From: Verrucomicrobia bacterium GWF2_51_19 | Lineage (GTDB): Bacteria > Verrucomicrobiota > Verrucomicrobiia > Opitutales > UBA12508 | Assembly: GCA_001831095.1 (NCBI GenBank) | Contig: MIDP01000005.1 | Location: 30,514-94,513 of the forward strand | Reading direction: 5' to 3' | DNA: 64,000 nucleotides | Part shown: positions 7,451 to 53,865 of the stretch, one piece after another | Layout: each line of letters begins with the position of its first letter | Position numbering within the stretch: position 1 is the first letter of the stretch | The notes under the pieces: model-generated | Databases searched by the model: none | What the model was told of the DNA's origin: nothing | What the model saw: the letters and a program-made list of their open reading frames with translations, nothing else | Made by a program: the position numbers and the translations under genes

Positions 7451-7527
7451 AAGACTGTTGCAAAAGGGCCTCTAGTTGCAGTTCCCCTACTCGGGTCTTG
7501 CTGTAAGAGCCATTTTTCAACGGTCTT
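7451..7527 (+). repeat. Type-B element, short form (77 bp)
   Basis: AAGACTGTTGCAAAAGGGCCTCTAG...CTACTCGGGTCTTGCTGTAAGAGCCATTTTTCAACGGTCTT. Lies 9 nt from the rpsH ATG. Confidence 0.8.
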
Positions 7528-7552
7528 TTCATTTCGTAAGTTGTTAATTCAC

Positions 7553-7744
7553 AAAGACCTGTGAAAAATGCTGTCAAAATTTGGCTTTGCGCGAGCACGA
7601 TCTGCCGTAGCGGCAGGGCTGGCCCTGCACCCTTGGGATACTGCGTATCCACTTTTAAAAGTGGATGCGTGAGCATCCTAGGGGGTACGGGGGCCGCTGC
7701 CCCCGGCGAAAAACGAGCTTTAACGGCATTTTGCATAGGTCTTT
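7553..7744 (+). repeat. Type-A-long element (192 bp): A element with a 94-bp multi-hairpin module replacing the right half of its central stem
   Basis: The termini and outer arms are identical to type A. The interior differs (see 7613..7706). Confidence 0.9.
7613..7706 (+). repeat. 94-bp nested multi-hairpin module inside A-long
   Basis: GCAGGGCTGGCCCTGCACCCTTGGGATACTGCGTATCCACTTTTAAAAGTGGATGCGTGAGCATCCTAGGGGGTACGGGGGCCGCTGCCCCCGG. It contains consecutive short stems: CAGGGC/GCCCTG, GGATAC/GTATCC, CCACTTTT/AAAAGTGG, GGATGC/GCATCC and GGGGGC/GCCCCC. Confidence 0.85.
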
Positions 7745-12973: not shown

Positions 12974-13097
12974 AAAGAACTATGGAAAATGCGCCTATAG
13001 CCAGGCCCGAGGAGTAAGGGCGACAGGAGCGTACGTTGGTACGTGACTTAGCCCGAACGACGAGAACGCCGCTAGAGGACATTTTACATAGTTCTTT
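12974..13097 (-). repeat. Type-B element, full length, inverted orientation
   Basis: AAAGAACTATGGAAAATGCGCCTATAGCCAGGCCCGAGGAGTAAGGGCGACAGGAGCGTACGTTGGTACGTGACTTAGCCCGAACGACGAGAACGCCGCTAGAGGACATTTTACATAGTTCTTT. The terminal TTA is the rplW stop. Confidence 0.9.
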
Positions 13098-14844: not shown

Positions 14845-14919
14845 AAAGACCTATCAAAAATGTCGTCAAAGCTTGGCTTTGCGCGAAACGAGCTTTCACG
14901 GTATTTTTCATAGGTCTTT
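14845..14919 (+). repeat. Type-A short form (75 bp, central hairpin deleted)
   Basis: AAAGACCTATCAAAAATGTCGTCAAAGCTTGGCTTTGCGCGA|AACGAGCTTTCACGGTATTTTTCATAGGTCTTTT. Abuts the rpsJ stop. Confidence 0.85.
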
Positions 14920-47061: not shown

Positions 47062-48354
47062 ATGGCATGTAAAAAGACAGCAATCTTGGGCAACGGTTGC
47101 ACGGGCAAGGCAGTCGCGACGTGGCTCTCCGAAAGAGGAAGCGATTTTGATGTTTTCGACGAAAATGGCCGCAACGATTTTGCCGAAGTCGCCAAAGATT
47201 TCGACACCGTTGTCTGCAGTCCAGGATTTCGCAAAACACACCCATGGCGATCGGCTGCCGAGGCGGCTGGCTGTCGGTGTTTGGGGGAATTGGAGCTTGC
47301 CAGGCCACATTGGAAGGGCAAAGTCATTGCAGTCACCGGCACAAACGGCAAGACATCGCTGGTCGAGTTTTTGGCCTTTGCATTGAAGCGGGCTGGCATC
47401 GACGCGCACGCCGTGGGCAATAACGGCATCCCCTTTATCGGCATTTGCGAGACGGGTACAGCCAACTCCATCGCCGTCTGCGAGGTCAGCTCGTTTCAGT
47501 CCGAGAGCATGACCGCATTCCCAATCGACATCCTCTTGTGGACGAATTTTGCCGAAGACCACATCAAGTACCACGGAAGCCTCGAGGCGTACCTTGAGGC
47601 CAAACGCCGCCTCGTTGACTTTGCCAAAGTCGTTTTTATAGGCGATGACATAACTCGCGAGTCCTTGTATATTCATGAATTGCAAAATGTAAGACATGGG
47701 CAAAATGGCTCTATAGCAAGGCCCGAGGAGCGAGGGCGACAGGAGCCTACTGACGTAGGTGACTTAGCCCGAACGACGAGAACGCAGCTAGAGAACATTT
47801 TGACCATGTCTTATCCTAAGGATTTTTGGACAGATTTCCGCAAAGAAACCTTCGACCTGGCTTGGAACGCTTGGCAGGAGTTGGGCCTGCCATTGGCAAC
47901 TCTGATGGAGGCGGGTGAGGCTTTCACTTTTCCGCCTTTCCGACTCGAGGAGCACAACGTTCATGGCGTACGTATTTTCAACGACTCCAAGGCCACCAAC
48001 TTCGACGCCCTTATAGCTGCCCTGCGCAACCTCGACGGCAGTTATTGGATCGGCGGCGGTTACGACAAGGGTGAAGATTTGGCCAATATCGCCCCGTTAC
48101 TGAATCAAAAAGTGAAAAAGGCCTACTTGGTCGGCGACACCGCTGAAAAAATTGCGGCCGTCCTCGACGTTCCCAGCGTCGTTTTGAGCAGGCTGGAGAT
48201 CGCCATCGAAGCCGCTCTGGCAGACGCAAAGCCAGGTGAAACCATCCTTTTTAGCCCCGGTTACCCAAGCTTTGACCAATTCCAAAATTTCGAAGAACGC
48301 GGAAGATTTTTCAATAAATGTTTGAATAGTTGCCGTTTTGTGCTTAATAAATAG
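47062..48354 (+). CDS. murD: UDP-N-acetylmuramoylalanine--D-glutamate ligase carrying an in-frame repeat insertion
   Basis: 430 aa. VIAVTGTNGKTS P-loop and NDSKATN motif. Residues ~208-250 ([43 protein letters not shown]) are encoded by a type-B element. Confidence 0.88.
   Translation: MACKKTAILGNGCTGKAVATWLSERGSDFDVFDENGRNDFAEVAKDFDTVVCSPGFRKTHPWRSAAEAAGCRCLGELELARPHWKGKVIAVTGTNGKTSLVEFLAFALKRAGIDAHAVGNNGIPFIGICETGTANSIAVCEVSSFQSESMTAFPIDILLWTNFAEDHIKYHGSLEAYLEAKRRLVDFAKVVFIGDDITRESLYIHELQNVRHGQNGSIARPEERGRQEPTDVGDLARTTRTQLENILTMSYPKDFWTDFRKETFDLAWNAWQELGLPLATLMEAGEAFTFPPFRLEEHNVHGVRIFNDSKATNFDALIAALRNLDGSYWIGGGYDKGEDLANIAPLLNQKVKKAYLVGDTAEKIAAVLDVPSVVLSRLEIAIEAALADAKPGETILFSPGYPSFDQFQNFEERGRFFNKCLNSCRFVLNK
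47691..47812 (-). repeat. Type-B element, full length, inside the murD reading frame
   Basis: AAGACATGGGCAAAATGGCTCTATAGCAAGGCCCGAGGAGCGAGGGCGACAGGAGCCTACTGACGTAGGTGACTTAGCCCGAACGACGAGAACGCAGCTAGAGAACATTTTGACCATGTCTT. Flanked by TA on both sides. The ORF stays open through it. Confidence 0.9.
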
Positions 48355-49495: not shown

Positions 49496-49524
49496 TTTTT
49501 TGGCGCTATTTTTACAGCGGTCTT
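49496..49524 (-). repeat. Solo C/B-type terminus overlapping the 3' end of the M16 peptidase gene
   Basis: Reverse complement AAGACCGCTGTAAAAATAGCGCCAAAAA, compared with the C terminus AAGACGGATCAAAATAGCGCAAAAATG. It encodes RPL-stop. Confidence 0.6.
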
Positions 49525-52325
49525 ATAACGTACACTATTGGATTCGTTGATAGATACTTCTTGGCAACTTGCTCCACGTCGGTCTTTTGCATGTTTTGAA
49601 TATCCGCAAGCATGGTTTCAGCCCAGGTTAGGTATTCCGGATGGAGTTGGGCGTTATTCAGAACCATATTGAGCCAATACTGGTTGGTGCGCCGCATCTT
49701 TTCTACTTGATGCAAGAAAGGATTTTTTGCGCGCACGAAGGCATCATCGGAAATTCCATTTTCGACGACCTCTTTAGCGACTCCCGCCATGGCCTCTGTG
49801 AGCACATCGATCTTGTCTGGAGCCGCATCTGACATGAAAAACAGAGAGCCCCTATCTTTATAAAAACGAGAGACCTCCATTCCCGATTGAGGCGAGTAAG
49901 TGGCGCTCATTTTTTGTCGAATTTTGACGAGCAGGCAGTCTGTGAGAACCTGGCTGAGCACATTCAGTTTGCGGATATCGTCGATATTCGACATATCCGT
50001 CGTCGGCCACAGCATACCGATACGAGCACTGGGGTTCTTGTCTTCGACAGTAAAGTCCTTTGTCTGCGCTGGAGGAAAGAGCAAAACGCGTTTGGAGTCA
50101 TCGATTTCCTTAGTGTCGGCGCGCTTTGGCAGGGCGCCAAACGTTGATTTAAAAGCCTCGAGCAGGGCAACTTTGTCGAAATCGCCGACAATAGCAACCT
50201 CCATGTACTCTTTTGTCAGAGCCGTTTGGAGCCATCCTTTGACGTCGTCTGAATTCATAGCAGCAACAACCTCTTGCGGCGGCATGACGTATCGGTAGTC
50301 ATTGCAAGTCAAAAAGGGCAAAACTTGGGTCCGACGAACACCACGGAAACTTTTTCTAAACAACTCGTACTCACTGTTGAGTTCACGCCGAAACACCTCC
50401 AAGGCTTCTGATCGATACCCGGGGTCGACGACATACGCACAGAGCACCTGAAGCAAGAGACCAACGTCGGCACTCGTTGCAATACCATTTAACTCAAAGT
50501 GATCGTCATCGAAATCGAAGAATGTGCCAATTTCTCGCCCTGCAAAAAACCTTTTCAGTTCTTCACGAGACATCTGCCCAAGGCCTCCATCGATAAAAAT
50601 AGCGTCGGCAACTTGCGCGAGCGCAGGCTTGTCTTGTGGCAATGACGCCAAACCCTTTCCAAAACTGACACAGACAGACACCGTCTTATCAAAATCGGTC
50701 TTTTTGAGGTTCAGACGGACTCGGTTGTCGAGGACATAGCTGTCGACGTCAAGGGCGTCATTGTGCTGTTCTTGAATGATCGTTCCTGGCTCCGTCGACA
50801 GTGCATAGGGAAAATCCTTCAAGCCGTAATCTTTAGAAGGCTCGACAAAAGCATCCTGGTCCTGCGTATAAATTTTGAGAATGGATGCAACAGGGTTGTT
50901 GATGGTGACGTTTCCAGCGACGATCACTGTCTTGACAGGATTCAAAGCATAAGTGAGAAAATACTGATAACACACCTCGGTATCGATTTCCGCCAACACT
51001 TTCTTGAGGCACACATCGTAGGTTTCTGGAGACATAAAGACGCCATTTTTATCATAATCATCTATCAAACCATCGACTAATAATTGCGACTGTCGCTTGT
51101 CTTTGTTGGCAAGACCTTCTCGGCTGTTATTGAGAGCCGCTTGCTTTGCTAGCTCGAGTTCGCTTTCATGAAATCCGTATTGCCACACGCATTGCAGATT
51201 CGCGTTCAATGCACACAAACACTTTTTCCACTTTTGAGGCTCACATTGTGCACTAAAATTCATTTCGTCACTGTAAGCTTCGTACTTAAAAAATCCCGCT
51301 TGAAGCTGCGTAAACGGCAAATAGGGCGCCTTCAAACGTTCTTGAAAACGATACTTCAACATCGTCAAAATTAAATTCTTCAAGACACTTTCACGAAAAC
51401 GTTTCTCGGCATCCTTTTCAAAAACGTAGGGCTTGGCAAACGCTATTTGTATATCTACAGCGCTGCTTCCGGTGTCGTAAACATAGCCAATGCGCAGCTT
51501 ATTGTCCAATGAGAGCTTGCCATAATCTGGGTTGTCGGCGCACGTCCCATTGAGGTCCACAAAGAGCTCGCGTATCTGTTTTTCAACAACAAGGGTGTCC
51601 GTAAAATCGCCCACAACGGCTAAAAACATCCTTTGAGGCGTATACCACTTTTGGTAAAAGGCCCGTAGGCGCTCGTTATTGGCGGCGTTAATTTTCTCCT
51701 CTTTACCTATCGGCAGGCGTTTTGCATAGAGCGAGTCGGCCATAACCTGTTGCATCAAGCTTGTCCAAATGCGGTAATCGGCTGTATCACGCATGCGCAG
51801 TTCCGACAAGACGACGCCCTTTTCCGACTGTACGGCTTCTTCTTCGATATCAAGAGATCCCGCGTAATCACGCATCACCGTCAGGCCTGTCTTGAGCGTT
51901 TCCGGGTCGACATTGGGGAGGTCGAGCTCGTAGACAGTCGCATCAAAGCCAGTGTGCGCGTTGGTGTCGTTTCCAAAACCGATGCCCAGGCGCTGTAGGT
52001 ACTCAATCAGGCCGTTTTTAGGAAAGTTCTTTGAGCCCTTAAATGCCACGTGCTCGAGAAAGTGCGCCAAGCCCTGTTCTTCATTGGTCTCCATCAGTGA
52101 ACCCGCGTTGACGTAGAGCCGCACACTCACGCGGTCTTTCGGCTCTGCGTTTTTCATAATGGCATACTTGAACCCGTTATCGAGCTCGCCGTAAACGACA
52201 GACGGATCGGCTGGCATGGGGCTATCTTTGTGAGCAAAGGGCTTGGAATACGGCTCTGCGTGCAGTGGCAACCACGATGTCAAAAACAGCAACAAAAAAA
52301 GCGTCTTTTGCTTGAGTTTTTCCAT
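49512..52325 (-). CDS. Secreted M16 (pitrilysin/insulinase) family zinc peptidase, double-length
   Basis: 937 aa. Signal peptide MEKLKQKTLFLLLFLTSWLPLHA, HFLEHVAFKGS (HxxEH zinc motif), and two M16 halves. Confidence 0.85.
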   Translation of the reverse strand: MEKLKQKTLFLLLFLTSWLPLHAEPYSKPFAHKDSPMPADPSVVYGELDNGFKYAIMKNAEPKDRVSVRLYVNAGSLMETNEEQGLAHFLEHVAFKGSKNFPKNGLIEYLQRLGIGFGNDTNAHTGFDATVYELDLPNVDPETLKTGLTVMRDYAGSLDIEEEAVQSEKGVVLSELRMRDTADYRIWTSLMQQVMADSLYAKRLPIGKEEKINAANNERLRAFYQKWYTPQRMFLAVVGDFTDTLVVEKQIRELFVDLNGTCADNPDYGKLSLDNKLRIGYVYDTGSSAVDIQIAFAKPYVFEKDAEKRFRESVLKNLILTMLKYRFQERLKAPYLPFTQLQAGFFKYEAYSDEMNFSAQCEPQKWKKCLCALNANLQCVWQYGFHESELELAKQAALNNSREGLANKDKRQSQLLVDGLIDDYDKNGVFMSPETYDVCLKKVLAEIDTEVCYQYFLTYALNPVKTVIVAGNVTINNPVASILKIYTQDQDAFVEPSKDYGLKDFPYALSTEPGTIIQEQHNDALDVDSYVLDNRVRLNLKKTDFDKTVSVCVSFGKGLASLPQDKPALAQVADAIFIDGGLGQMSREELKRFFAGREIGTFFDFDDDHFELNGIATSADVGLLLQVLCAYVVDPGYRSEALEVFRRELNSEYELFRKSFRGVRRTQVLPFLTCNDYRYVMPPQEVVAAMNSDDVKGWLQTALTKEYMEVAIVGDFDKVALLEAFKSTFGALPKRADTKEIDDSKRVLLFPPAQTKDFTVEDKNPSARIGMLWPTTDMSNIDDIRKLNVLSQVLTDCLLVKIRQKMSATYSPQSGMEVSRFYKDRGSLFFMSDAAPDKIDVLTEAMAGVAKEVVENGISDDAFVRAKNPFLHQVEKMRRTNQYWLNMVLNNAQLHPEYLTWAETMLADIQNMQKTDVEQVAKKYLSTNPIVYVIRPL

Positions 52326-52376
52326 AATTGGGGATTGAGTTTAAGGTATATTTACGGCCCTTCAACCCTAATGTTT

Positions 52377-52451
52377 AAAGACATATGCAAAATATTCTGA
52401 AAACTCGTTTAGCGCAAAGCCAAGATTTGATGCAATTTCTCACAGGTCTTT
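52377..52451 (-). repeat. Type-A short form (75 bp), inverted orientation
   Basis: TAAAGACATATGCAAAATATTCTGAAAACTCGTTTAGCGCAAAGCCAAGATTTGATGCAATTTCTCACAGGTCTTTA. Confidence 0.8.
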
Positions 52452-52475
52452 ATGGTTTAACAACTGGCGAAAGAA

Positions 52476-52594
52476 AAGACCGTTGAAAAATGCGCCTATA
52501 GCAAGGCCCGAGGAGCGAGGGCCGCTGCGTACGCTGGTACGTGACTCAGCCCGAACGACGAGAACGCAGCTAGAGGACATTTTGCAATGGTCTT
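52476..52594 (-). repeat. Type-B element, full length, covering the 5' end of waaA
   Basis: AAGACCGTTGAAAAATGCGCCTATAGCAAGGCCCGAGGAGCGAGGGCCGCTGCGTACGCTGGTACGTGACTCAGCCCGAACGACGAGAACGCAGCTAGAGGACATTTTGCAATGGTCTT. Confidence 0.9.
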
Positions 52595-53865
52595 TTATTT
52601 TTGCCTACAGAATTCTCTTTCTCCCGCTCTTCCTCCTCGTCTTGCCGTATTACACGTACCGCATGCTCAAGCGTGGCGGCTACGGTCGACACTTTTCCCA
52701 CCGCTTTGGCCTTTTCCCGAAAATCCCCAAACATAAAAAACGCATCTGGATACAGGCTGTAAGCGTCGGGGAAGTGCGCGCCTTACAGCCGTTGATCGAG
52801 GAACTCCAGGCCCAAAATAACTTCGAAATCTTCCTAACAACCACAACCAGCACAGGTCTCCAGACCGCCGAAAAGCTCTTTGCCAACAAGATTGCTTTTA
52901 TCGGAGTCTTTCCACTCAACTTCTGGCTCTTCTCCGCCCTCGCCTGGAGACGCATACAGCCAACTTTCGCCTTTTTAACGGAATCCGAACTCTGGCCCGA
53001 ACACCTCCAACAGGCATGTAGGCACAAGGTTCCACTCTTTCTCCTCAACGGGCGCATGTCGGAAAAATCCTTTCGGCGCTATCAACAAATCCCAACCATC
53101 TGCCGCTGGCTCTTTGCAAAAATCACTCACATTCTCGCCTCCTCCGACGAGAGCCGCCAACACTTTATTCAGCTCGGCTGCCCAGCTGAAAAGATTGTAA
53201 CCGTCGGTAACCTCAAGCTCGACCTCTCTCCAAGCATCCCACCCGACTCAGCAATGATCGCCGCGCAAAAGCGTGCCCTTGGGTTTCCCGAGAACGCCAC
53301 GATTCTTTTTGGCGCATCGACTTGGCCCAGCGAAGAAACGATGTTGGCCAACGTCCTGAAAAACACCCGGCTCTACTCGCCAAATACCTACTTGATTCTC
53401 CTTCCACGACACCCGGAGCGTCGCAACGACATCTCCAACGTTCTCAAGCAGACCCACTTTTCGTTCTCCTTTCGCACCGATAATCCCTCGCAGCCCAACG
53501 ACATCTACGTCGCCGACACAATAGGCGAAATGCACAAACTGCTTCCCTTGGCCGATATCGTGTATGTTGGAAAGAGTATGGCTCCCAATAAGGGCGGCCA
53601 ATCACCCGTCGACGCCGCCCTCTTTGGCAAGCCGATTTTGTACGGCCCCTATATGGACAACTTTAAACCGCTCTGCAAAATGCTCGAAGAACAAGGCGCC
53701 GCGTTCCGCTGCAACAACGAAGAGGCCCTCGAACACTTCATAAAACACCTCTTAGAAGACACCGCTGTTCGAACTTCCATGGGTCACAAAGCAGCCCTCT
53801 GGCAACAATCCAACCAGGGCGCCACCGCCAAAACCCTCGAGGCCCTCAAAGCCCTCGGTGTGTGA
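52483..53865 (+). CDS. waaA: 3-deoxy-D-manno-octulosonic acid (Kdo) transferase; start codon uncertain and inside a repeat
   Basis: WaaA core starts about at FAYRILFLPLFLLVLPYYTYRMLKRGGYG...RIWIQAVSVGEVRALQPLIEEL. The only in-frame starts are TTG 52483 and TTG 52582, and both lie inside the type-B element. No in-frame ATG occurs before the conserved region. Confidence 0.8.
   Translation: MKNAPIARPEERGPLRTLVRDSARTTRTQLEDILQWSFIFAYRILFLPLFLLVLPYYTYRMLKRGGYGRHFSHRFGLFPKIPKHKKRIWIQAVSVGEVRALQPLIEELQAQNNFEIFLTTTTSTGLQTAEKLFANKIAFIGVFPLNFWLFSALAWRRIQPTFAFLTESELWPEHLQQACRHKVPLFLLNGRMSEKSFRRYQQIPTICRWLFAKITHILASSDESRQHFIQLGCPAEKIVTVGNLKLDLSPSIPPDSAMIAAQKRALGFPENATILFGASTWPSEETMLANVLKNTRLYSPNTYLILLPRHPERRNDISNVLKQTHFSFSFRTDNPSQPNDIYVADTIGEMHKLLPLADIVYVGKSMAPNKGGQSPVDAALFGKPILYGPYMDNFKPLCKMLEEQGAAFRCNNEEALEHFIKHLLEDTAVRTSMGHKAALWQQSNQGATAKTLEALKALGV

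What the first reader, a model, noticed from the sequence alone, without database searches (positions are those of the whole stretch)
52476..52594. The waaA 5' end and its only possible start codons lie inside a type-B element
The Kdo-transferase reading frame is open from 52483, but the conserved WaaA sequence begins around residue 38 (FAYRILFLPLF...). There is no in-frame ATG. The only candidate starts are TTG 52483 and TTG 52582, both within the repeat, and the latter lies in its right terminus ATTTTGCAATGGTCTT. The element therefore supplies the initiation codon and either a 5' UTR hairpin or a ~35 aa N-terminal extension. Upstream lie a type-A short copy and a spacer, the same A-spacer-B order relative to transcription that is seen in the ribosomal operons.
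Basis: seen in the sequence. Interest (0 to 1): 0.6.

Follow-up and report, generated by a model that had tools for sequence, protein, structure and literature searches.

The report
Mobile repeat replaced waaA's start codon
A 217-bp mobile hairpin repeat appears to have landed just after the start codon of a lipopolysaccharide gene (waaA) in an uncultured Verrucomicrobium, so the gene must now start from a TTG inside the repeat or an ATT at its edge; the same repeat family sits in a fixed orientation at gene starts and stops across this genome.

Summary
Window 52476-52594 is a full-length copy of a roughly 122-bp hairpin repeat ("B"; 51 unique full copies in about 400 kb of this organism). The waaA frame has no ATG or GTG before its conserved N-terminus. 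The only canonical starts there are TTG 52483 and TTG 52582, both in the repeat's terminal inverted repeats.

New here: B is the distal part of a 217-bp composite (A-short 52378-52450, 25-nt tail, B) flanked by a TTA direct repeat. Deleting the composite plus one TTA joins ATG 52371 to the gene as ATG TTT ATT TTT GCC TAC AGA = MFIFAYRILF. This matches homologue N-termini such as MFIFLYR. So waaA was probably decapitated after codon 2. Its native ATG now lies 220 nt upstream, out of frame.

Four assemblies are identical over this stretch, so a sequencing error is unlikely. Public annotations use three different starts, including ATT 52597 just outside the repeat, so "only possible starts" is too strong. 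I favour TTG 52582 (GAGG 5 nt upstream). A 37-aa extension from TTG 52483 is the main rival, because B is read in that same frame in murD, asd, sucA and other genes. No experiment exists.

The family resembles known miniature inverted-repeat elements (MITEs). What is unusual is its polarity at gene boundaries.

The parts
52371..52373 (+). Stranded ancestral ATG of waaA (inferred). It now opens a 9-codon ORF ending at TGA 52398-52400.
   Evidence: Removing 52378-52597 gives ATG TTT ATT TTT GCC TAC AGA = MFIFAYR. This matches homologues MFIFL|YR (P0090) and MFIWL|YR (P0072).
52375..52377 (.). Left copy of the TTA direct repeat (putative target-site duplication).
   Evidence: Flanks read ...atgtTTA|AAGAC ... 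GGTCTT|TTAttttt. Other composites are flanked by TTAA and TCCT.
52378..52450 (-). A-short copy (73 nt), inverted relative to waaA transcription.
   Evidence: nhmmer hits 52379-52410 and 52412-52450 on the minus strand. 81% complementary to the A-short copy at 14845-14919 (I18).
52451..52475 (+). 25-nt AT-rich tail/spacer tatggtttaacaactggcgaaagaa, ending in a weak SD-like GAAAGAA.
   Evidence: Similar to spacers in other composites, e.g. tgtgaattaacaacttacgaaatgaa and tgtgtattaacagcttacgaaagga.
52476..52594 (+). Type-B hairpin element (119 nt; a 3-nt deletion relative to the 122-nt consensus).
   Evidence: nhmmer 116.9 bits over model positions 2-123. Fold -49.3 kcal/mol, z -4.96. Aligned with 46 other copies, with a covarying terminal stem.
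52483..52485 (+). TTG in the left inverted repeat. First canonical in-frame start; would add a 37-aa extension.
   Evidence: Anti-SD pairing of the 20 nt upstream is -4.0 kcal/mol.
52573..52576 (+). SD-like GAGG inside B, 5 nt upstream of TTG 52582. Part of the element consensus GCTAGAGGAC.
   Evidence: Anti-SD pairing -5.8 kcal/mol, which ranks just outside the best 12 (20%) of 59 ORF starts in the window. Consensus shown.
52582..52584 (+). TTG in the right inverted repeat. Favoured present-day start (MQWSFIFA|YR).
   Evidence: In frame. Gives 8 residues before YR, within the homologue range of 4-16 for most. TTTTG is the majority state of this position in the family.
52595..52597 (.). Right copy of the TTA direct repeat.
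52597..52599 (+). ATT. Native Ile codon 3 in the reconstruction; used as the start codon in GenBank OHE74447.1.
   Evidence: P0001 begins MFAYRILF. No SD-like motif upstream (-2.7 kcal/mol).
52582..53865 (+). waaA (Kdo transferase) from the favoured start to the stop codon.
   Evidence: NCBIfam WaaA models E 6e-86. PF04413 homologues. 49 invariant columns retained.
52663..52665 (+). First in-frame ATG (residue 61), a conserved internal Met. Start used by JGI/ENA gene calls.
   Evidence: P0122 is 400 aa. M61 is nearly invariant, and Y42, R43, P55, Y57 and R60 would be lost.

Best explanation
A 217-bp composite of hairpin repeats (A-short, a 25-nt AT-rich tail, and B) inserted into waaA immediately after its second codon. 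It duplicated TTA on insertion.

The native ATG (52371) was left 220 nt upstream. It is shifted by +1 and blocked by TGA 52398. The rest of the gene (from ATT 52597 on) kept its frame and its conserved residues.

Full-length WaaA can therefore only be made from a start supplied by the insertion. The most likely start is TTG 52582 in B's right inverted repeat. It sits 5 nt after the element's own GAGG and gives MQWSFIFAYR..., three residues longer than the inferred ancestral MFIFAYR....

Shown:
- the repeat, its boundaries and the direct repeat
- the lack of any other canonical start
- the identity of four assemblies
- the fit of the reconstructed N-terminus to homologues

Inferred:
- the insertion history
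- which codon is actually used
- how the ribosome reaches a start that lies in a stable stem
For: - **The element is real and complete**.
- **Composite structure and TTA flanks**. Other composites are flanked by TTAA and TCCT, while their individual halves are not. With strict boundaries, 5 of 11 composites have direct repeats of 3 nt or more, against 13% for random flank pairings.
- **The excision product fits homologues.** It reads ATG TTT ATT TTT GCC TAC AGA. In 62 of 94 homologues M lies 4 residues before YR; in 5 it lies 5 residues before, including MFIFL|YR and MFIWL|YR.
- **No canonical in-frame start lies between 52372 and the conserved region except the two TTGs**.
- **Four assemblies are 100% identical over 52300-52700**.
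- **The upstream motif is comparatively good.** GAGG gives -5.8 kcal/mol with the anti-SD, in a genome where only 20% of ORF starts reach -6.
- **The insertion looks fixed.** The predicted empty site was not found in 241 million metagenome records.
- **The gene looks intact.** The ORF and all family-invariant residues are retained.
Against: - The coincidence of an in-frame ATG within the homologue-compatible range left of the insertion has a chance of roughly 0.15 (about 0.03 for that exact position).
- Boundaries of AT-rich direct repeats are ambiguous.
- TTG 52582, its GAGG, TTG 52483 and ATT 52597 all lie in a long stem in the predicted fold. Initiation there should be inefficient unless the hairpin is opened or processed.
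- SD use is weak in this genome.
- No verified TTG start exists in the window.
- B is read through in the same frame in other genes, which favours the upstream TTG.
- No transcript or protein data exist.
Confidence: 0.5

Rival explanations
1. Translation starts at TTG 52483 in B's left inverted repeat and reads through the whole element. WaaA then carries a 37-aa element-encoded N-terminal extension ([37 protein letters not shown]).
For: - The frame is open through B and in phase with waaA.
- The same B frame (IARPEERG...ARTTRT) runs continuously into murD, asd, an alpha/beta hydrolase, sucA and a ketohexokinase. In asd and the hydrolase the Pfam domain starts 1-3 residues after B. All four 5'-end cases have an in-frame ATG upstream of or inside B.
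- A purine-rich GAAAGAA lies 7 nt upstream of TTG 52483.
- B's 3-nt deletion keeps the frame.
Against: - The B frame is open in 54% of unrelated copies, so openness is weak evidence.
- TTG 52483 is also in the stem.
- From general knowledge of N-tail translocation and the positive-inside rule (not tested here): a 37-aa tail with 7 basic and 5 acidic residues, placed in front of the N-terminal membrane anchor of WaaA, should hinder an N-out topology.
- Only 4 of 94 homologues have a comparably long N-terminus, and those look like over-extended gene calls.
Confidence: 0.25
2. The start is the non-canonical ATT 52597 (as in GenBank OHE74447.1). The element is purely a structured 5' leader.
For: - ATT lies 2 nt after B's end, inside the 0-12 nt interval where 33 of the 35 ATG starts found downstream of a B right end begin.
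- The hydrolase in L065 also has ATT at that position.
- PGAP chose it.
Against: - From general knowledge: ATT is a very rare start.
- There is no SD-like motif (-2.7 kcal/mol).
- MFA|YR would leave 3 residues before YR, shorter than any of 94 homologues.
- In the reconstruction it is simply Ile codon 3.
- The predicted stem extends over it.
Confidence: 0.1
3. The insertion inactivated or truncated waaA. Either no protein is made, or a 400-aa product starts at ATG 52663 without the N-terminal hydrophobic segment (JGI/ENA gene call).
For: - ATG 52663 is the only in-frame ATG near the 5' end, and Prodigal-type callers pick it.
- All upstream candidates are buried in structure.
Against: - M61 is a conserved internal residue. 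Y42, R43, F46, P55, Y57 and R60 (invariant or nearly so) would be lost, yet they are intact.
- The 427-codon frame has no lesions.
- The insertion is identical in four assemblies.
- No second WaaA from this organism appeared among the best 120 hits.
Confidence: 0.08
4. No decapitation occurred. The composite inserted upstream of an original start at or near 52594-52599, as it does at most genes, and that start later mutated. ATG 52371 and the TTA repeat are coincidences.
For: - Most B copies lie upstream of the start codon, not inside genes.
- M-I-F-A|YR, with M at 52594-96, would fit the majority pattern M-I-W-x|YR.
Against: - It needs one or two substitutions destroying the start of a normally essential gene.
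- It also needs a chance TTA repeat and a chance in-frame ATG at the far junction.
- An original ATG at 52597 would give an N-terminus shorter than any homologue.
Confidence: 0.1

Closest known systems
Rickettsia palindromic elements (RPEs)
   Same: Short hairpin-forming repeats that are found in frame inside protein-coding genes and are thought to be translated as part of the host protein (review PMC10969869). Here B sits in frame in murD and at the 5' ends of asd, sucA, a hydrolase and a ketohexokinase, always in one reading frame.
   Different: - There is no detectable sequence relationship. Rfam has no match, and the host is a Verrucomicrobium.
- Most B copies are intergenic and polar with respect to gene starts.
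- At waaA the insertion is not in frame with the native ATG, so a new start is needed.
Correia elements (CREE/NEMIS) of Neisseria
   Same: MITEs of roughly 100-150 bp with terminal inverted repeats. They lie mostly immediately upstream of genes and are co-transcribed. They fold into hairpins cleaved by RNase III at the inverted repeats, and they can alter expression of the downstream gene (PMC10969869). Single A copies here are flanked by TA, as I recall for Correia elements.
   Different: - No sigma-70-like promoter was found in or around the waaA copy.
- The termini have a different sequence.
- Here two different hairpin units plus a tail form a polar composite.
- Supply of a start codon to a decapitated gene is not among the effects listed in that review.
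ERIC/IRU elements of enterobacteria
   Same: Transcribed intergenic hairpin repeats within operons whose orientation affects mRNA fate (PMC10969869).
   Different: This family is unrelated in sequence and far denser (about 30 copies in 64 kb). Its ends coincide with stop codons, or lie 0-12 nt from start codons.
Split ribosome-binding sites bridged by a hairpin (phage T4 genes 38 and 25; from memory, not checked here)
   Same: An SD-like motif (GAAAGGA) lies immediately 5' of the B hairpin and the ATG lies 0-12 nt 3' of it. The motif is enriched at gene-adjacent copies (12/26 against 2/25).
   Different: The hairpin here is a 120-nt mobile element. Function is untested. At waaA the motif is degenerate (GAAAGAA) and no ATG follows.

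Membership tests
Bacterial MITE (miniature inverted-repeat transposable element) | Short (about 50-500 bp) and without a transposase gene | tested here: met
   B is 119-124 nt and A is about 126 nt. Six-frame translations show only short element-internal frames.
Bacterial MITE (miniature inverted-repeat transposable element) | Terminal inverted repeats | tested here: met
   AAGACCGTTGAAAAATG pairs with CATTTTGCAATGGTCTT. The pairing is kept by compensatory changes across 47 copies.
Bacterial MITE (miniature inverted-repeat transposable element) | Many dispersed copies in one genome | tested here: met
   38 terminal-motif matches in 64 kb against 0.37 expected. 51 full B and 28 full A unique copies in about 400 kb.
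Bacterial MITE (miniature inverted-repeat transposable element) | Target-site duplication | tested here: inconclusive
   TTA at waaA; TTAA and TCCT at other composites; TA at single A copies; TATA and GGTAC at single B copies. Boundaries in AT-rich flanks are ambiguous and several copies show none.
Bacterial MITE (miniature inverted-repeat transposable element) | Cognate autonomous element with the same termini | tested here: inconclusive
   None found between inverted-repeat pairs 350-3500 nt apart in the sampled DNA; those intervals hold ordinary genes. The whole genome was not available.
Bacterial MITE (miniature inverted-repeat transposable element) | Evidence of mobility (presence/absence polymorphism) | tested here: inconclusive
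   The predicted empty site is absent from metagenome contigs. Four assemblies carry the insertion. The two JGI data sets are 99.7-100% identical.
RPE-like translated repeats | Element lies in frame within conserved protein-coding genes without breaking the ORF | tested here: met
   murD 47690-47812; asd, hydrolase, sucA and ketohexokinase loci.
RPE-like translated repeats | Element-encoded peptide present in the mature protein | not testable with these tools
   Needs proteomics.
REP/REPIN (RAYT-mobilised palindromes) | GTAG or CGTC tetranucleotide tag at the repeat end (title of PMC3733652) | tested here: not met
   The termini are AAGACC/GGTCTT. GTAGG occurs only in the central hairpin of one subfamily.
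Known RNA families (Rfam 15) | Match to a curated covariance model | tested here: not met
   Only two tRNAs in the window at gathering score. Nothing at E up to 5 in 52300-52700.
WaaA / KdtA Kdo transferase (PF04413, PRK05749) | Full-length match to family models and retention of family-invariant residues | tested here: met
   NF004388 E 5.6e-86 over residues 42-457, though at 288.7 bits it is below the equivalog cut-off of 438. Homologues carry PF04413. 49 invariant columns are all present.

The most novel reading that the evidence does not exclude
The A-tail-B composite is not just junk tolerated between genes. It is a polar intercistronic cassette that has colonised stop-start junctions genome-wide, including most junctions of the ribosomal-protein operon.
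- Its A end regenerates the upstream TAA stop.
- Its tail carries an SD.
- The B hairpin bridges that SD to a start codon 0-12 nt beyond it, or is processed there.
- B's open frame and the TTG codons in its inverted repeats let genes survive hits inside their first codons (waaA, asd, hydrolase, sucA).

On this reading the element is built to be translation-neutral, and waaA is the extreme case in which an essential gene now depends on an element-borne start.
Probability: 0.2. Interest if true: 0.8.

Novelty: new variant of a known kind. Interest (0 to 1): 0.55.

Why it matters
- **Annotation.** Three public records give three different WaaA proteins (460, 422 and 400 aa). None recognises that the native start was cut off. 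Genomes rich in such repeats will be systematically mis-annotated at gene starts.
- **Biology.** A gene that is normally essential for lipopolysaccharide synthesis appears to depend on a start codon carried by a mobile repeat. That is a concrete example of a repeat rescuing the damage it causes.
- **The family.** It fills about 5% of the window. It sits in most intergenic gaps of the ribosomal-protein operon. It faces gene starts with one end and gene stops with the other. It is read in frame inside several housekeeping genes. This mixes features of Correia-type and RPE-type elements in a phylum where I found nothing comparable described.
- **An open question it makes testable.** How do ribosomes start 0-12 nt after a -40 to -50 kcal/mol hairpin on highly expressed messages?

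Tried and rejected
- **Sequencing error hiding an ATG.** Dropping one T from TCTTTTATT would put ATG 52587 in frame as MVFIFAYR. Rejected: four assemblies are identical.
- **B as a translated leader ORF coupled to the downstream gene.** Rejected: a start codon plus an open frame occurs in only 7/26 gene-adjacent copies against 15/25 others.
- **Avoidance of one phase between B's end and the downstream ATG.** This was an artefact of boundary calls. The recomputed phases are 15/13/7.
- **Open B frame enriched where B is in phase with a long downstream ORF.** 10/14 against 20/37, p 0.21, so it is not usable as evidence.
- **Promoter or terminator in 52200-52750.** None found by consensus scan.
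- **Rfam.** No family matched.
- **Relatives of waaA for an empty site or conserved upstream region.**
  - The genome contigs protein scan found nothing.
  - The nearest homologues are no more than 49% identical.
  - Gene neighbourhoods differ: dnaN-waaA and acpP-waaA.
- **B-core 19-mer in genome contigs.** Only single chance hits in unrelated GC-rich genomes, with no element by nhmmer. In hindsight this scan was poorly spent.
- **B 27-mer in viral contigs.** Nothing.
- **Autonomous transposase between inverted-repeat pairs.** None; those intervals hold PEPCK, an ABC permease, a response regulator and similar genes.
- **A +1 ribosomal slip at AUG UUU AAA linking ATG 52371 to the open frame.** The codon-anticodon logic does not support it. 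Not pursued.
- **TTG starts with a strong SD at rpoC and nusG as precedents.** Homology places both starts at a downstream ATG.

Full report
**Source and gene.** The window comes from the metagenome-assembled genome "Verrucomicrobia bacterium GWF2_51_19". The waaA product is 100% identical to OHE74447.1. The ORF at 52483-53865 is a Kdo transferase. NCBIfam WaaA models match with E down to 5.6e-86 from ORF residues 38-46, at profile positions 2-9. All 49 invariant columns of a 95-sequence alignment are present. The flanking genes are an M16 peptidase (49512-52325, minus strand, divergent) and proS.

**The observation.** The 119 nt at 52476-52594 are a full-length member of a repeat family.
- A profile built from nine other copies matches it over model positions 2-123 (116.9 bits).
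- Its terminal motif occurs 38 times in the window, against 0.37 expected by chance.
- It folds with paired termini (-49.3 kcal/mol, z -4.96).
- Rfam has no matching family.

The waaA frame is open from 52372, after TAA 52369-71. The in-frame start-like codons are TTG 52483, ATT 52579, TTG 52582, ATT 52597, ATT 52612, TTG 52642 and ATG 52663. Two caveats apply. ATT 52597, at the element's edge, is the start used in GenBank (P0001 begins MFAYRILF). ATG 52663 is used by JGI/ENA gene calls (400 aa). A third record uses TTG 52483 (460 aa).

**Sequencing error.** The GenBank MAG, the UBA re-assembly DPTP01000018, an ENA scaffold and JGI 3300025154 are identical at all 401 positions of 52300-52700. 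A hidden ATG created by a homopolymer miscall is therefore unlikely. One such case would be ATG 52587, which one fewer T would bring into frame.

**Where WaaA should start.** In an alignment of 94 homologues, 62 begin M-I-W-x immediately before the conserved YR. Five begin with five residues before YR, including MFIFL|YR (P0090) and MFIWL|YR (P0072). Most of the rest have 6-16 residues. In the window, F38-I39-F40-A41 precede Y42-R43. The native start is therefore expected at or just before 52594, exactly where the element ends.

**The insertion.**
- Upstream of B lie a 25-nt AT-rich tail (52451-52475) and an inverted A-short copy (52378-52450).
- The same A(inverted)-tail-B arrangement fills the gaps between genes of the ribosomal-protein operon. 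There the tails are similar to one another (tgtgaattaacaa...gaaagga), so the tail belongs to the repeat.
- Whole composites are flanked by short direct repeats: TTAA at 2732-2955 and TCCT at 7451-7743. Their separate halves are not.
- With strict boundaries, 5 of 11 composites have repeats of 3 nt or more, against 13% for random pairings of the same flanks. AT-rich boundaries make this only moderately strong.
- At waaA the composite 52378-52594 is flanked by TTA (52375-77 and 52595-97).
- Removing it with one TTA gives ...ccctaATG TTT ATT TTT GCC TAC AGA..., that is MFIFAYRILF. This is a normal N-terminus for the family.

I conclude that the composite went in after codon 2. The native ATG (52371) now sits 220 nt upstream, in the +1 phase, and runs into TGA 52398. 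The chance of an in-frame ATG anywhere in the homologue-compatible range left of the insertion is about 0.15, and about 0.03 at that exact position. Together with the TTA repeat and the lack of any start after the element, I put the decapitation at roughly 0.65-0.7. The predicted empty site was not found in 241 million metagenome records. Relatives are too distant (no more than 49% identity), and their gene order differs.

**Which codon is used now.**
- *TTG 52582* is a majority-state position of the right inverted repeat. It lies 5 nt after the element's GAGG, which pairs with the anti-SD at -5.8 kcal/mol; only 20% of ORF starts in the window reach -6. It gives eight residues before YR.
- *TTG 52483* has a purine-rich GAAAGAA 7 nt upstream (-4.0 kcal/mol). 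It would add 37 residues with 7 basic and 5 acidic. From general knowledge, that should hinder insertion of an N-out membrane anchor.
- *ATT 52597* has no SD. It would leave three residues before YR, fewer than any homologue.
- *ATG 52663* would remove six conserved residues.
- In the predicted fold of 52360-52640, the B stem is extended by pairing of the tail (GGCGAAAGAA) with UUAUUUUUGCC. All three upstream candidates therefore lie in a long helix, and some unfolding or processing is needed whichever is used.

My estimates, given a functional gene, are TTG 52582 about 0.4-0.45, TTG 52483 about 0.25-0.3, ATT 52597 about 0.1, and other outcomes the rest.

**Evidence from the rest of the family.** A 27-mer of the B core retrieved 36 further loci. 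All come from two JGI data sets of this same organism, which are 99.7-100% identical to each other. The shorter 19-mer B core run on reference genomes gave no true copy, and the 27-mer found nothing in viral contigs.
- Among 64 unique B right ends, 35 are followed within 0-21 nt (mostly 0-12) by an ATG opening an ORF of at least 60 aa.
- The association is polar. 28 of 51 full copies have a gene start beyond the right end, against 5 beyond the left. 15 of 28 A copies have a gene end abutting their right end, against 4 at the left.
- An SD-like AAGG/AGGA lies just left of B in 12 of 26 gene-adjacent copies, against 2 of 25 others (p 0.004).
- I tested whether B is a translated leader ORF coupled to the downstream gene. 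It is not. A start codon plus an open frame is rarer in gene-adjacent copies (7/26 against 15/25).

**Other genes hit like waaA.** B runs in the same reading frame (…IARPEERG…ARTTRT…) into five other genes:
- asd (L095)
- an alpha/beta hydrolase (L065)
- sucA (L088)
- a ketohexokinase (L090)
- the middle of murD (window 47690-47812)

In asd and the hydrolase the Pfam domain begins 1-3 residues after B and no ATG follows B, as at waaA. These genes do have an in-frame ATG upstream of or inside B. This shows that B can probably be translated, and it keeps the N-terminal-extension reading alive. However, that frame is open in 54% of unrelated copies, so its openness at waaA proves little.

**Structure of the family.** RNAalifold on 47 copies predicts 33 pairs, 18 of them with compensatory changes. 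Examples are columns 7/124 (GC 20, GU 13, UA 10), columns 8/123 (UA 24, AU 7, CG 6, GC 5), and the central hairpin (GC 36, CG 11). Either the hairpin, as RNA or as single-stranded DNA, is under selection, or the two arms are homogenised against each other.

**Comparison with known elements.**
- The family meets the descriptive criteria of a MITE: size, inverted repeats and copy number. Target duplication, an autonomous partner and mobility remain inconclusive.
- It resembles Correia elements in sitting just upstream of genes as transcribed hairpins.
- It resembles RPEs in lying in frame inside genes (review PMC10969869).
- It differs from both in its two-unit polar composite, in the way its ends coincide with stop codons or lie 0-12 nt from start codons, and in this case of a start codon being replaced.

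I rate it a new variant of a known kind.

**Verdict.** The finding is real and its interpretation is partly right. The stronger result is that waaA appears to have been decapitated by a composite repeat, and that the family is strikingly polar at gene boundaries. Which start codon is used remains unresolved without transcript or protein data.

Noticed in passing
window 47690-47812 (murD 47062-48354): A full B copy lies in frame inside murD and adds 41 residues ([40 protein letters not shown]) between the Mur ligase middle and C-terminal domains. It sits at a region where E. coli MurD has a different variable segment. The reading frame is the same as upstream of waaA.
   Followed up: partly
window 1554, 2956, 6506, 8333, 13096, 14919, 22963, 28462, 35382: The right end of A copies (one B copy at 13096) coincides, within -2 to +1 nt, with the stop codon of the upstream minus-strand gene. 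The flank TA plus the element's first A re-form TAA, so insertion into a TAA stop leaves the stop intact.
   Followed up: partly
L095 3385-3465; L065 9332-9454; L088 850-971; L090 3595-3706: asd, an alpha/beta hydrolase, sucA and a ketohexokinase each have a B copy fused in frame to their 5' end. In asd and the hydrolase the Pfam domain begins 1-3 residues after B and no ATG follows B, as at waaA. All four have an in-frame ATG upstream of or inside B.
   Followed up: partly
window 52372-52596: The waaA frame stays open through the entire 220-nt insertion (75 codons, starting 1 nt after the A of the stranded ATG). The first 37 of these codons contain no canonical start. Rough chance is a few percent. 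No mechanism found.
   Followed up: partly
window 52466-52475 with 52595-52605: In the predicted fold, the tail GGCGAAAGAA pairs with UUAUUUUUGCC (the first waaA codons). This extends the B stem by about 8 pairs and covers ATT 52597.
   Followed up: no
window 2727, 4918, 5693, 8057, 9491 (map, rplO, rpsE, rpsN, rplN): Highly expressed ribosomal-protein genes start 4-9 nt after a stable B hairpin. The only SD-like motif (GAAAGGA) is on the far side of the hairpin. How initiation works there is unexplained; a split SD or RNA processing are guesses.
   Followed up: partly
window 42679-42800 and 42810-44093: glgC starts at ATG 42810, 9 nt after a B copy. The longer 454-aa minus-strand ORF 42735-44099 that overlaps it has no family match and is spurious.
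   Followed up: yes
L078 743-865; L086 4589-4708: B copies sit inside the loops of terminator-like hairpins (aaaccctgct|B|agcagggttt; cccctg...|B|...caggggttctttttt).
   Followed up: no
L088, about 150 nt upstream of B 850-971: The 3' end of the gene upstream of sucA (…gatcaagcccaagccaa…aaaata) is present twice, on either side of an A fragment. A collapsed mini-element (TAAGACTATCGCAAAATAAAGTCTT) lies 2 nt before the sucA ATG.
   Followed up: no
window 52483 / 52597 / 52663: Three public records annotate three different WaaA proteins from identical DNA: 460 aa (HCJ11688.1), 422 aa with an ATT start (OHE74447.1), and 400 aa (JGI/ENA).
   Followed up: yes
47 B copies (alignment A4): Both the terminal stem and the central hairpin (CGTAC/GTACG against CCTAC/GTAGG) are kept by compensatory changes across copies. 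18 of 33 predicted pairs show double changes.
   Followed up: partly
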